A stretch of DNA of 63,906 bases, the filler included, from Dugesia japonica (lineage: Eukaryota), in assembly GCA_001938525.1 (NCBI GenBank). It is 6 parts of 6 records of this genome, joined end to end, with 100 filler letters (N's around TTAATTAATTAA, not from the genome) between each part and the next. Parts side by side here need not be neighbours in the genome. Positions count along the whole stretch, not along the records: positions 17,665 to 26,453 come from MQRL01498505.1; positions 26,554 to 36,601 come from MQRL01608840.1; 4 more parts are not named here. One strand, 5' to 3'. Position numbers and translations under genes: made by a program. Positions 25,073 to 35,300 of the stretch are shown piece by piece. The notes under the pieces are model-generated. The model did no database searches. It was given only the letters and a program-made list of their open reading frames with translations, and was not told the origin of the DNA. Each line of letters begins with the position of its first letter. The first letter of the stretch is position 1.

Positions 25073-25560
25073 ATGGGGCAGTCTTGTTATTTCGCAAATG
25101 GTAGATATTCGCAACTCATCACACAAACAATATGAAATGCTCAAGCAGACAGATATGCATTGTCGATCATCAATCAAGCCTATACACTGAACTATATGGA
25201 CAATTTGAATAAGTGTATAGTAAATAAAGCAGAGAGAATAAAAGGAGAATACAATCTGGAACCCTATATGAATCCAATGACAAAAATATCAAACAACGAA
25301 ATTTTGTTGTATCGATATAAGTTGGAGAAAAAACTACAAGAAGGTCTACATGCTTTGATAGAAATTCAATTTCTAGATAATTTGGTAGTAATATTATTAT
25401 TATTATTATTATTAATGCAATAATTATTGTTTAATTAGATATTAAGAAAAGAACAAAGCTCTAAAAAACTTCAATTCGATCCAAACGTTCTTGTAAAACA
25501 TACCATGGTAATGTTTTTGAACTTGATCCCTCGAGGCAGGGGGCCTACCCCCACATGAGT
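25073..25560 (+). pseudogene. Unknown element-borne gene with one in-frame stop and a probable intron (~25385-25438)
   Basis: MGQSCYF...*...KISNNEILLYRYKLEKKLQEGLHALIEIQFLDNL, homologous to the minus-strand gene at 33699-34163. Confidence 0.55.
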
Positions 25561-26553
25561 CATAGCCATGTCCACTTTTAGACTCCGCCCCTTTTTGGAT
25601 ACCATCCTCTTTTGAACTCCGCCCACTTTTTAAAAAAAATTTTTTGCCACGCCCACTTTTTAAAAAATTTTTTTCCATTTATTTTTTTAAAAACTTTTCT
25701 TAATTTTTGTTTATTTTTTTTAATTTCTTTTTTAAATTTTTTCTTTTAAAAATTTTTTTTGAAAATTTTTTTTAAAATTTTTTAAACTTTTTTTTTGTTA
25801 ATTAAAAAATTTTTTTTTGCCACTTTTAAAATTTTTTTTAAAGTTTTTTTAAATTTGTTTTTCGATGAGTCATACTTTTCTTGAAAATTTTTTTTATGTC
25901 AGTATAAAGACATCATACCCTCTCCCCTTAACCCTTACCCTCTCCCCTCACGGACACATTACTTTAAAATAGTACCCCCCACGGAAACACATAACTTTAA
26001 AAAAATTTTTTCTTTTAATAAATAAATTTTTTTTGTTTTAATAATGGCTTTTTGTTTTATTAATTGTATTTTTTATATTTAAATAAATTTTTTTTTAATT
26101 AAATTTTTTAACTTTTTTTTAAAATTTTTTTTTTTAGTTTTTTATTTAATTTTTTGTTTTTAATTTTCTTTTTAAAATTATTTTTTTTAATTTGATACAT
26201 TACTAAAGAAAAAAAATATCTGGTTACATTAAAAAAAAAATTTTTTTAATTTACCAACTAAATTTTTTATAATCCCTAACCAAAATTATGCAATTTTTTT
26301 ATTTAAAATTTTTTTTCGGTAATTTTAGTCTTTTTGAAATTTTTTTTTTTTGAGAAAATTATAATTATTATTATTATTATTTTATTTAAAAAATATTATC
26401 GAGTGACACATCAATGTGTCTTTATTTAAACTGCTTACCAAATGCATTTCTATNNNNNNNNNNNNNNNNNNNNNNNNNNNNNNNNNNNNNNNNNNNNTTA
26501 ATTAATTAANNNNNNNNNNNNNNNNNNNNNNNNNNNNNNNNNNNNNNNNNNNN

Positions 26554-26840
26554 GAAAATTAGTAAGCAGAATATCGTTAAAAATTGTTGGAAATTAGCCA
26601 GCAGAATATCATTAGAAAATTGTTTTAAACTATTCACAGAATGTCGTTAAGAATGGTTGAAAATTATACAGAAGAATATCGTTACAAAAAACTTTTGAAA
26701 ATTAGAAAACAGAGCATCGTTAAAAATTGTTGAAAATTATCGAGCAGAATGTTGAATAGAAGTTATTAAATGCTATTAGAAAATTATGAAGCAGAAGGTC
26801 ATAAATATCGTTGAATATTATCGAACAGAATGATGGTAAA
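26554..26840 (+). repeat. Minisatellite of ~8-9 degenerate ~33-bp units (GAAAATTA...CAGAATATCGTTAAAAATTGTT)
   Basis: Direct observation of head-to-tail units with no unique spacers. Confidence 0.85.
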
Positions 26841-30759: not shown

Positions 30760-31450
30760 AGTAGATAGATACTGGCACACTGACACAAATGAGTGCGTAC
30801 CCGCAGGATTAGTGGCGTAATGACACTTAATTCTTGTTTCTTTAGTTGCGAATGTAAAAATTGTATTATATTAGGTAATATTAGGTAATTGTGTCAATAT
30901 TTCCACTGTTTTTAGTTGAGAAAAATATTTTACACACAAATTATGTAATTGGATTAACTCAATTTTCGAGTTGTTACTTAATAGAATTAATTATGTCAAT
31001 ATTTTTCCTATGTTATTAGTTGGCGAACAAAGTTATTGATCGTATTTTGAATAGATTACAGAATTATTTTCGAAAATCTATTCTTTTTATTTAAGATGCA
31101 TTATTTTTAGGCTATTTAAGCGATTATATTTATTCAGGCTTTTTAAGCGGTTATATATACTGTTTGATTAATGTTCTTCTACATTGACATTTACACTAAA
31201 CCATAGTTTCAACTTAAAAAATTTAAAACAGCTCTATATTTTTAATTGTAACTTTGAAATTTAATTAGATTTCATGTGTATTTAATTCACGTGCTATTTT
31301 TAGCGTAAACAAATTAATTAATGTTTAATTTATTAATAGGCATTTTTTATAAATCAATGATCCATTTGAAATAATTTCTAAATATTTATTGAAAATCGAT
31401 AATTTCAAACTTTAATTTATAACAGGAATTCAAAATATTAAAATTATTTT
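30760..31450 (+). mobile_element. AGTAGATAGATAC-terminus element fragment; 31240-31430 is shared with 58730-58875
   Basis: Terminal motif AGTAGATAGATACTGGCAC. The internal block TTTAATTGTAA...ATTAGATT.C.TGTGTATTT also follows the motif at 58576. Confidence 0.6.
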
Positions 31451-32331
31451 TAATATGACTTTACTTCATCACATCTAGCATTAAAAAAAACTAAAGTGAA
31501 GATTTTCTGTTATCCATGAAATTTAAATTCTTTTTTCAAAAACGAATCTTTCTCTCGATTAATTCTCATTAGGGTAGAAATGAGAGAACTGAGTTACTAC
31601 CCGTCGCCCACTGACGGAATTTAATCCAAGTGTGTTTTCAAATACTGTTGCAAAGTATTTTAGACAGTTTATTAGGCAATCAGTCATGTCCAGAAATTCA
31701 AGACATATATGAGTATATCATAACATGAGATTATCTAATAGTTACGAAAGAACTCATAAATTACGTAACAATAGTTATTACATTATAATCACGTTACATA
31801 TTATACAAGCACTCTAAAGTATCACTTCTTTAAAGAAAATTGCTGGAAAATATAATTTTTATTTAAATTGACCAAATTTTAAAAATTTTTAAGAATGATT
31901 TTTTTTTAACTTTCGTTTTTCAGAAAAGATTCATTTTTATGGAAAGCATTTTCTTCTCAAATTGCTTCCTAAGTTCACTCATTCCATAGAGAATTTTACT
32001 CTCATCAATAATATTATAGTTAAAAATCGCGAAAACTATTCCCGATAAAGTGAAATGGAAAACAATAATTTTAAACACAAACAAGTATAAACAAGGAGCG
32101 TACATAGTTAAGGGATTAATGAAATCGCTCTTATATTAAAATCACCCCGAACAATATAAAATTAAATATTAACTGCTCTTCCAAGGAAATTAATATTAGA
32201 ATCCGTTTACTAAATTTAACGATTTATTGATATTATCAAATAAATAATAAACTTTAATTTTAATTAATTCATTATTACAATCAATCAAGTATTTATGTCA
32301 AAATTAAATATTATTTAATAAACAAAATAAC

Positions 32332-35300
32332 TTTTTAACGGCAAATTGTATTGTCTCCACATTATGACTGGCAATCATTATTAGAACTTTACCTCTAGGT
32401 CTACGTAAGATTGATTGAAAAAAAGAATCCATACAACTATAATACATGTTAGTTGTATCTTCAAAAGTAGGATTAATAGGATCGATGTATTTCTGCACTT
32501 GAGATCTATGCCTTTCCTTTATTCAATTAAATATTCATTAAAAATATTTTATAGGCTACTTGTTCCATATAAGCACCTCTTACTAATTTTGCACCAAAAT
32601 AAAAGTTCTCTTGTTCAGCGAATGCTAAATCCAAATTAACGTGTTCAAAGGCATCCTAAAAATATATTAATGAAACAAATTTAAAATTATAATTATAGTG
32701 ATCAAATATTTGTTACAAGTAATTTAACGCCAAAGAGTCAGTAATACATGAAATAAAAGAAAACACTACAGTGAACCTAAAAAGAGTTCTGAAAATCGTT
32801 TAAATAAATAAAAATGTATTTTATTCAAGTCAGCTGTAAAATATTATAATTGATTTGAGAATAAATATTATGTAAAATAATACTTTAAACGTCATTAGAC
32901 ATGAACACAAATTCCTACATTTTTTGAACTTAATACACAACTCTAACTAGTAAAATCCCAAAAAGTAATGTTAAACATATCGGTTTGTGATACATTTTAC
33001 TTAATCAAGTATTATTTCATTGAAAATTACCTCATTAAGTACCATCTAATCAAGTATTGTATCAACAAGTAAAATCTTCGCATAAGCTCATGTCATGTAT
33101 AATCCCATCATTCATGAGGAATTATCTATTCACTTAAAAATATGTAAGTCCTGTACTCTAATACTATATGAAAATACTCGCGTTTAACATTATGACGTTA
33201 CTAGTTTATTCGTCTTCATGAAAGTAATTGATTTAAGATCCGTTCTTAACGTAAACCATCTGCCATAGAAAAAATGTATAAAACTTACACAAAAATATAC
33301 CGAGAAATAGGAAGGGAAGGGTCGTGGACAGGGGGTTCGCAATAACTGAAGAAGGGAAATCGCGACCGTTGTCATAGCAACGGTATCAAAACTGTGATAG
33401 CAACCGTAGTCATGGCAACCATGATTGTGCTTGTTTCCATGGCAACGGGCGCGAAAATAGTTTTATTGATTTACACAGTAACTAATGACGATATGGGTAT
33501 TATTTTTGTCACGGTAACATGCAACAATGGTTTTCATATCTATGGCAATATGAAAATATTGCTGCTGTCAATGCAAACAAGATTTTTAAAAAATATTTTT
33601 TGAATTTTTTCTGAAAAAATTAAAAAATAATTGTGAATATTTGAAAATTTTAAAATTTGAAAAAATATAGAAAATTATGTATAGTTTAATGTTCTTTTTT
33701 ATAAATTTTTAATTTGAATAATAGTGACGATATAATGTTCCAAAGTTCCTGTCCTCGACTCCTCCCATTTTTTTTCTATCTTGTAACAACATTTCTAACA
33801 ATTGAACCAGTAAAAATAAAATTTAAATTTATTATCATTATTTTATCTTACTTGATTCAAAGCATGAATTCCTTTTTTAATATCCTTTTCTAATAAATAT
33901 CTATGTTCTAATATTTCCCAGTCACTTAATCTTTCAAATTTCTTTCGATGGTATTTATGTTCTGGAATCACTTTTATAATTTTTTCAGAAACTAGATATC
34001 TTCAATCACGTAGATATTTATCCATATTGTTGGCGAGAATTTAGTTAAGTTGGAATGGATACTTACTGGTCGTTTGTGTTCCTCGTTGATGTTGTTGTTG
34101 GTTGCATAATTTTAAGATATTTTTTCTTTCCTCCTCCACCATTTTATTTTCAAAATCATCCATTTTAATTATTGTTGTAAAATTATGAAAACATGAATTA
34201 TAAATTTTCTTGATATATTTGTCTGCCTAAGCAATAATTTGGATGTATAAATTGCATCTACATTGCTTATGTCTTGCATAAATCATGTATATGTATTACA
34301 TGACTTAATTATTTACATATAAATTCTATTAATTATAAAACAAGACATAACAAAAAGGTTAATACATTTAATTTATTAAATCTAATACATAATTTTAAAA
34401 AATATTTACATCATCATAAAAATCTGAAGTTTTCAAACCGGTTATTACTATTTTTGAAGAATGAAAAACATTAACACAAAGAATTGAATAGTATTAATCT
34501 AAGACCTGGAAATATTTCCGGTTCATATATGCAATTTGATGTTTCATCCAATTTCTGTAAATATATTGACAACTGTAAGGAAGCGGTCACCATCACCGAT
34601 TGTATTTCTTTGACAATTATATTGAATGGAAGTTCTTTGTTTTCTAATGGTTTTTTACNACCCATTATTCTACATTTTCCATTTGGAAATATAATTATGG
34701 TAAAATCGGAATACTTTAATACACATTGTTTTGGTTTATAAGTAAAATGAAGACTATTCAAATTTTCAGTAGTATAACCTTTATAATTTATATTTGACAA
34801 CGACCTAATTACAAAATAAAAGTGACTTATTTCGGTCTATTTATACTTTTTCAACTATAAACAAAATCAATATACTGATTGAAAATGCTTTACAAACATG
34901 AATATGGCAGATGAAAAACAAATTTTATTCATTATTAAAGAATATGCAACTTTAATAATTGACGAAGTACTGAAACTTGCATCAATTAAAGAAGAGGAGG
35001 AAAATGATATGAATTTTGAAAAAAACACTGGGAATGATAAAAACTTTACAGATGATGATGAGAAAAGAAAAACGTTACGGATTATGATGAAAACGATTTC
35101 AATGTTTGTTTTTGAATATATTTCCTCAGTATGTGGATAATTTTTAAATTACCCTTCTATAGTGAATCAATTATTAATCCAAAAAATGAAGATAATACAT
35201 ATTTCTTCTAATATTTATTAAAATCTGTCGAAACTATTTCTAATTTAGAATTAAAATCATTGATACAAGATTTACTAAATGATAAATCAATTAATTATAC

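What the first reader, a model, noticed from the sequence alone, without database searches (positions are those of the whole stretch)
25073..34163. A shared unknown gene links the TBP cassette to the AGTAGATAGATAG element
Seen: KISNNEILLYRYKLEKKLQEGLHALIEIQFLDNL (25300-25384, +) aligns without gaps to [34 protein letters not shown] (~33940-33790, -, across a small intron). The consensus is roughly (K/R)(I/L)S..EIL..RY.LEK....G(I/L)HAL...Q.L..L. The two copies lie on different assembly pieces and have their apparent introns at different positions. Inference: this is an unnamed, spliced gene family typical of this element group, and it ties the TBP-like gene to the Polinton-like termini.
Basis: partly seen in the sequence, partly recalled or inferred. 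Interest (0 to 1): 0.7.

Follow-up and report, generated by a model that had tools for sequence, protein, structure and literature searches.

The report
Orphan gene pair beside miniature TBP
Two broken, distantly related copies of an unnamed spliced gene lie in decayed mobile DNA, one beside a shrunken TATA-binding-protein gene and the other just inside a transposon-like end, hinting that a mobile element carries its own transcription starter, although the link between the two sites is only indirect.

Summary
The similarity is real. Exon-1 alignment beats 19,998 of 20,000 shuffles, and family profiles match (hhalign 93.9%, E 1.5e-7). The two copies are deep paralogues (A-type, B-type; 19-29% identity), each with unnamed database relatives and a conserved intron position. 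No Pfam, NCBIfam, PHROG, PDB or fold match was found. Both window copies are pseudogenes.

Copy A starts 1.15 kb inside an AGTAGATAGATAG end, in a compositionally continuous block with CDE/CHR-like repeats. Copy B lies next to a broken member of a large family of ~146-aa mini-TBPs (confident TBP fold, first-repeat helices lost).

The claimed tie is weaker than stated. The B+TBP cassette sits wholly inside a 3.7-kb intron of a host proline dehydrogenase gene, has no AGTAG end, and two host exons separate it from the nearest one. The motif marks real junctions, but Polinton membership fails or is untestable: no core genes, no second end or target-site duplication, and spliced genes.

Best reading: decayed cargo of large mobile elements carrying a private transcription-initiation module. 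The TBP-to-terminus link is plausible but unproven.

The parts
23946..24340 (+). AGTAGATAGATAG end and terminal arm of a mobile element
   Evidence: 76% identical over 295 nt to the oppositely oriented end at 19562-19199. Abuts a cut-off fragment that reads like the end of a LINE RT (identified by recalled motif, no Pfam hit).
24860..25002 (+). 26-bp tandem array (5.6 copies) upstream of gene A; two copies match a CDE-4nt-CHR pattern
   Evidence: TRF; motif scan; CDE/CHR IUPAC codes from passages of PMC5683655; the 4-nt spacing is recalled
25098..25387 (+). Gene A (A-type paralogue), exon 1; frame broken near the 5' end
   Evidence: 87% identical to P0001; start inferred from P0001
25388..25438 (+). 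Gene A intron, 51 nt, GT..AG
   Evidence: 17-residue gap against 5 of 5 long relatives; splice contexts
25439..25555 (+). Gene A exon 2, truncated; the rest of the family sequence is missing
   Evidence: tblastn matches end at residue ~153
33852..34163 (-). Gene B (B-type paralogue), exon 1, two in-frame stops
   Evidence: 70% identical to P0012 and P0013; stops at codons 41 and 54
33712..33851 (-). Gene B intron (about 44 nt, acceptor not canonical in this copy) and probable exon 2
   Evidence: P0012 and P0013 stop matching at the same donor; acceptor scan
34371..34800 (-). Mini-TBP pseudogene: intronless, with a frameshift, a late stop and no start codon at the homologous position
   Evidence: Pfam TBP E 1.5e-10; 35 relatives of 38 candidates; tblastn; model pLDDT 94; Z 13.7, rmsd 2.6, 146 aligned to human TBP
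34904..35137 (+). Unknown ORF divergent from the mini-TBP, probably part of the cassette
   Evidence: ORF list; no Pfam, NCBIfam, PHROG or meaningful PDB match
33368..33518 (+). Cluster of X-box-like (RFX-type) motifs at the left edge of the TBP cassette
   Evidence: 5 of the window's 11 half-sites lie in 150 bp; 4.6 expected in the whole window; motif name recalled
32656..36377 (-). Host proline dehydrogenase intron (3722 nt, phase 0) that contains the whole B + mini-TBP cassette
   Evidence: Flanking exons 36524-36378 and 32655-32560 read as consecutive ProDH sequence; Pfam Pro_dh on the next exon
30760..30779 (+). Nearest AGTAG end to the TBP cassette, on the far side of two host exons
19550..19562 (-). 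AGTAG end, same subfamily as 23946; abuts a Gypsy protease-like fragment
22698..22717 (+). AGTAG end cutting a Penelope-like fragment
   Evidence: Penelope identity from recalled motifs
43497..43517 (+). Fifth end (AGTAGGTAGATAG), 173 bp inside an LTR-like element

Best explanation
A and B are decayed copies of two ancient paralogues of an orphan, intron-bearing accessory gene carried by large mobile elements of this AT-rich animal genome. The B-type travels with a miniature TBP; the A-type lies near an end that starts with AGTAG. Shown: homology, paralogy, splicing, pseudogene state, the TBP fold, and insertion of the B+TBP cassette into a host intron. Inferred mechanism: the element is transcribed by host RNA polymerase II (short spliceosomal introns; CDE/CHR-like, X-box-like, AP-1 and CRE motifs). 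It supplies a stripped-down TBP that keeps the TFIIB-contacting C-terminal stirrup but has lost the first-repeat helices that bind host regulators, so it could start transcription at element promoters. The helical A/B proteins are most likely cofactors of that programme. That A-type, B-type and mini-TBP belong to one AGTAG-ended element group is inferred, not shown.
For: Shuffle test. An A-only profile finds B-type P0012 at E 0.0018 with database-scale Z, and B is its best non-self hit among 3,481 window segments. hhalign 93.9% over 60 columns. The B-type clade has 100/100 support. The cassette lies inside a host intron whose exons are stop-free while cassette genes are broken. 35 compact single-ORF mini-TBP relatives at 36-80% identity. 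The model lacks first-repeat helices, and the E-P-E-x-F stirrup is invariant in 34 of 34 rows. Four exact 12-mer ends against 0.035 expected; three abut cut-off older elements. Unbroken G-skew of +0.3 to +0.65 from 23946 to 24945. A B-type protein (P0080) and a close mini-TBP (P0018) are both recorded on JGI contigs of 2644 nt; chance about 0.004 among JGI records.
Against: No AGTAG end flanks the TBP cassette. Only 1 of 5 ends has a family gene next to it. The contig-length match was noticed post hoc and has chance about 0.15 over all records. No transposase, integrase or polymerase can be tied to the element. The A-type model is poor (pLDDT 55), so the cofactor role has no structural support. 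A5 scores the second B-type protein only at E 0.14 and window B at E 53 at database scale. The TBP surface assignments are recalled textbook knowledge.
Confidence: 0.5

Rival explanations
1. Both genes are mobile-element cargo but of separate element families. The B+TBP cassette has other ends, so the shared family does not tie TBP to AGTAG termini.
For: A and B are 19-29% identical and sit on a very long branch. No significant DNA similarity beyond AT-rich low complexity between their flanks. Host exons lie between TBP and 30760.
Against: Both members of a family with about 10 known proteins occur in one 64-kb window that also holds five AGTAG ends; both flanks carry clustered factor-like motifs.
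Confidence: 0.27
2. The genes are accessory ORFs of giant Gypsy-type LTR retroelements, and AGTAG is an LTR end or an internal LTR motif.
For: A 7.1-kb LTR-like unit with internal ORFs and a 4-bp duplication is in the window, and one AGTAG copy lies 173 bp inside it. Planarian Burro elements have accessory ORFs (PMC6431247 passages). A Gypsy RNase H-like fragment abuts the cassette.
Against: The LTR-like unit has TG..CA ends, not AGTAG. No direct repeats flank A or B. Introns would be lost on reverse transcription unless the genes are antisense (general knowledge).
Confidence: 0.13
3. A and B are lineage-specific host genes or their pseudogenes, lying among repeats by chance.
For: Host-sized introns (44-51 nt, against a ~43-nt ProDH intron); few database relatives.
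Against: Both copies are broken. B and TBP are packed inside another gene's intron. A begins 1.15 kb from an element end within one skew block. The mini-TBP family is intronless and only 21-29% identical to cellular TBP.
Confidence: 0.1

Closest known systems
Polintons/Mavericks (adintoviruses)
   Same: The end begins with AG/AGT; a long terminal arm is shared between copies; accessory genes; TBP is listed as a gene label in MELD-virus figure legends (PMC8502044).
   Different: The end is neither (AGT)2 nor (AG)3; no pPolB, integrase, ATPase, protease or capsid found; the genes are spliced, whereas intact vertebrate Mavericks are intronless (PMC8097293 passages).
TATA-binding protein family, including viral TBP-like proteins (NCLDV, herpesvirus BcRF1/UL87)
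   Same: TBP fold (Z 13.7, rmsd 2.6, 146 aligned); viral TBP-likes are top BFVD hits (E 2e-7).
   Different: About 146 aa, some 30 residues shorter than the cellular core; first-repeat helices absent; at most 20% identical to the listed viral matches with E <= 0.001.
Burro giant Gypsy retroelements of planarians
   Same: Large elements with accessory ORFs and tandem repeats (PMC6431247 passages).
   Different: TBP or this family is not among the domains named in the passages read; no LTR pair around A or B.

Membership tests
Polinton/Maverick | pPolB and retroviral-type integrase inside the element | tested here: not met
   145 of 145 stop-free segments >=52 aa in 17665-54441 scanned with Pfam: no polymerase; the one rve hit follows a Gypsy RNase H. 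The fragments are short and decayed, so this speaks for these copies only.
Polinton/Maverick | ATPase, protease and capsid genes | tested here: inconclusive
   None found, but capsid genes are poorly covered by Pfam and the copies are truncated.
Polinton/Maverick | Terminal inverted repeats of 100-1500 bp at both ends | tested here: inconclusive
   Only single ends seen; the 19562 and 23946 arms point away from each other and are 76% identical.
Polinton/Maverick | 5-8 bp (usually 6-bp) target-site duplication | tested here: inconclusive
   No partner end with a duplication for 5 of 5 ends within their pieces.
Polinton/Maverick | End motif (AGT)2, (AG)3 or (AC)3A | tested here: not met
   The ends match (AGT)2 at 5 of 6 bases only (motifs for vertebrate elements).
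Polinton/Maverick | Intronless genes | tested here: not met
   A and B carry introns; the mini-TBP is intronless.
TBP family (mini-TBP neighbour) | Two-repeat saddle fold | tested here: met
   the first repeat is reduced.
TBP family (mini-TBP neighbour) | Binds TATA DNA and TFIIB | not testable with these tools
LTR retroelement accessory gene | Flanking direct repeats with TG..CA ends and gag/pol | tested here: inconclusive
   No direct repeats around A or B in the self-comparison, but the pieces are only 9-10 kb.
Helitron | CTRR 3' end with hairpin, insertion between A and T | tested here: not met
   Read from the other strand the motif ends CTACT, and the five flanking bases vary; features recalled.

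The most novel reading that the evidence does not exclude
An undescribed group of large invertebrate DNA elements with AGTAG ends, distinct from canonical Polintons in having spliced genes. It encodes its own transcription-initiation module: a ~146-aa TBP that keeps the TFIIB stirrup but has shed the surfaces for host regulators, plus a paralogous pair of novel helical cofactors, with expression gated by E2F/DREAM-type promoter arrays in dividing cells.
Probability: 0.2. Interest if true: 0.75.

Novelty: new variant of a known kind. Interest (0 to 1): 0.43.

Why it matters
Element-encoded basal transcription factors are known from large DNA viruses. A small mobile element in an animal genome with a minimal TBP and dedicated cofactors would show how a transposon can secure its own transcription, and it would give a natural minimal TBP for testing which surfaces initiation needs. 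The A/B family and the mini-TBP are also ready probes for finding the full-length element. As it stands, the window holds only broken fragments and an indirect link.

Tried and rejected
Family annotation of A/B proteins gave nothing meaningful: Pfam, NCBIfam, PHROGs, PDB by sequence (39, 93, 94: 0 hits at E <= 10), ESM Atlas (24: best 0.80, chance level), phage tblastn and two GTDB scans (97: 0 of 22 stretches confirmed; 98: 0 of 78).

The A-type model was low-confidence, so the fold searches (52: best E 0.16; 53: best Z 5.3, single helices) are uninformative, not evidence of a new fold. A recalled resemblance of the A-type C-terminus to TFIIA found no support.

P0007 and P0008 (2 of 7 hits) were dropped as repetitive, unrelated proteins. 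Rfam found 0 matches at E <= 0.1. The idea that the ORF at 17755-18372 belongs to the 19562 end was rejected: it lies before an LTR-like end at 18620. The idea that 25546-26453 is an inverted arm of 24330-25100 was rejected (score within shuffle range). The idea that 30760 is the cassette's end was rejected because host exons intervene.

Literature: searches returned 0 papers. In search 54 none of the 40 listed papers (of 228) contained AGTAGATAG. Searches listed no description of this family. Repbase, figure panels and bioRxiv supplements could not be seen, so the element may already be catalogued there.
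Full report
Setting. The window is six assembly pieces joined by an N-padded linker, AT-rich throughout and full of decayed Gypsy, mariner, hAT and Penelope-like fragments (hAT and Penelope named from recalled motifs). Copy A is in piece 17665-26453 and copy B in piece 26554-36601, so nothing spans the two. The host was not identified; a planarian-like invertebrate is my guess from composition and intron size.

Observation. The peptides are at 25283-25384 (+) and 33932-33852 plus 33807-33787 (-), with 16 of 34 identities. Without assuming any splice, exon 1 against exon 1 scores 68, reached by 2 of 20,000 shuffles.

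The family. A phmmer search of 1.84 billion representatives gave 7 hits, of which 5 were kept and 2 repetitive proteins dropped. A profile search gave 9 hits among 4,363 candidates. Together these are 10 unnamed proteins: seven A-type, two B-type and one divergent. One search's query contained B, so its B-type hits are not independent. The independent tests are an A-only profile, which finds P0012 at E 0.0018 and P0013 at E 0.14 at database scale, and hhalign at 93.9%, E 1.5e-7 over 60 columns. In the tree the B-type is a 100/100 clade on a very long branch. A and B are therefore old paralogues.

Splicing. A's intron is 25388-25438: five of five long relatives align across a 17-residue gap, and P0001 reads into the same intron. 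Both B-type relatives stop matching at B's donor. B's acceptor is non-canonical here and only narrowly the best choice. The five long A-type proteins end in short, unconserved tails after a shared motif, which I infer to be read-through into a further intron; if so, the true proteins are longer. Both window copies are pseudogenes.

Function of A/B. No library or fold search named the family. The model is mostly helical but unreliable (pLDDT 55). Any function comes from context only.

The TBP neighbour. 34800-34371 (-) is a broken member of a family of compact TBPs: 35 hits of 38 candidates, mostly 144-164 aa, 36-80% identical. An intact relative folds at pLDDT 94 onto cellular TBP (Z 13.7, rmsd 2.6, 146 aligned), and viral TBP-likes top BFVD. 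The model lacks the helices of the first repeat, while the E-P-E-x-F stirrup of the second is invariant in 34 of 34 rows. By recalled TBP structure, that keeps the TFIIB contact and removes the surface used by TFIIA, TAF1 and Mot1. TBP appears as a gene label in MELD-virus figure legends (PMC8502044: passages, section 10, supplement search with 0 hits; bioRxiv 697771 passages); I could not see which element carries it.

The ends. The exact 12-mer occurs 4 times against 0.035 expected, with a fifth copy at one mismatch. Three copies abut cut-off older elements, so the motif marks real junctions. No second end or duplication was found for any of the five. The motif differs from the vertebrate Maverick ends, whose intact genes are intronless (PMC8097293 passages; TIR and TSD ranges from PMC10748475 passages). 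No core Polinton gene was found in 145 segments. Polintons do occur in flatworms (PMC8532177 and bioRxiv 2025.04.19.649669 passages), so the idea is plausible but not met here. PMC11161782 and bioRxiv 2026.06.19.733378 have no occurrence of TBP or TATA in the main text.

The link. For A it is fair: the start is 1,152 bp inside the 23946 end, G-skew is unbroken up to the promoter, and 4 of the window's 8 CDE-4nt-CHR-type matches flank the gene, with 1.8 expected in the whole window (codes from PMC5683655 passages). For TBP it is not shown. B, the mini-TBP and a divergent ORF lie inside one 3,722-nt intron of a host proline dehydrogenase gene. Two more host exons lie between them and 30760, and no motif of the gene's later exons was found in the window, so the gene probably runs through that site. 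A's and B's flanks share no DNA similarity beyond low complexity. One hint that B+TBP is a recurring unit: P0080 and P0018 are both recorded on 2644-nt JGI contigs. The chance is about 0.004 among JGI records but 0.15 among all records, and it was noticed post hoc.

Verdict. Most likely these are fossils of large mobile elements carrying a minimal TBP and an orphan paralogue pair; whether TBP-bearing and AGTAG-ended elements are the same group needs the genome. I found no description in ten literature searches, but Repbase, figure panels, bioRxiv supplements and viral and metagenome contigs were out of reach.

Noticed in passing
window 43324-50470: A 7,147-bp LTR-like unit (TGTTG..CAACA ends, 4-bp CTAC duplication) splits a hAT-like transposase and holds short orphan ORFs (47241-47705, 49363-49698, 49810-50217). 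A related right end and ORF lie at 17755-18620. Possibly a giant solo LTR.
   Followed up: partly
window 27200-27950: A degraded coiled-coil-like ORF whose upstream motif resembles by eye that before 47241; possibly a third member of that LTR-like group.
   Followed up: no
window 34371-34800 and P0014-P0048: The mini-TBP family itself (35 relatives, some on contigs up to 19 kb) may be the more interesting object and the best probe for the parent element.
   Followed up: partly
window 19491-19497, 22805-22811, 23989-23995, 30816-30822: A CATTACG/CGTAATG motif occurs 45-110 bp inside four of the five AGTAG ends, and GCAC occurs about 17-20 bp inside all five.
   Followed up: no
window 24662, 25556-25660, 25866: CRE, AP-1 and GC-box motifs cluster around gene A; all 3 GC-box matches in the window lie at 25583-25647 (motif names recalled).
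   Followed up: no
window 35330-35594 and 22041-22697: Penelope-like GIY-YIG fragments; the first includes an inverted partial copy and may truncate the TBP cassette on the right.
   Followed up: no
window 1642-1763 and 5974-6104: An 86%-identical inverted repeat flanks hAT-like and Gypsy fragments.
   Followed up: no
window 17273-17500, 40549-40833: Host exons: serine carboxypeptidase S28 and a PH domain.
   Followed up: no
P0001, window A vs P0002, P0004, P0005, P0009-P0011: The A intron is read through in P0001 and window A but absent from six relatives, five of which seem unspliced at a later site: possible recent intron gain, or partly spliced transcripts.
   Followed up: no
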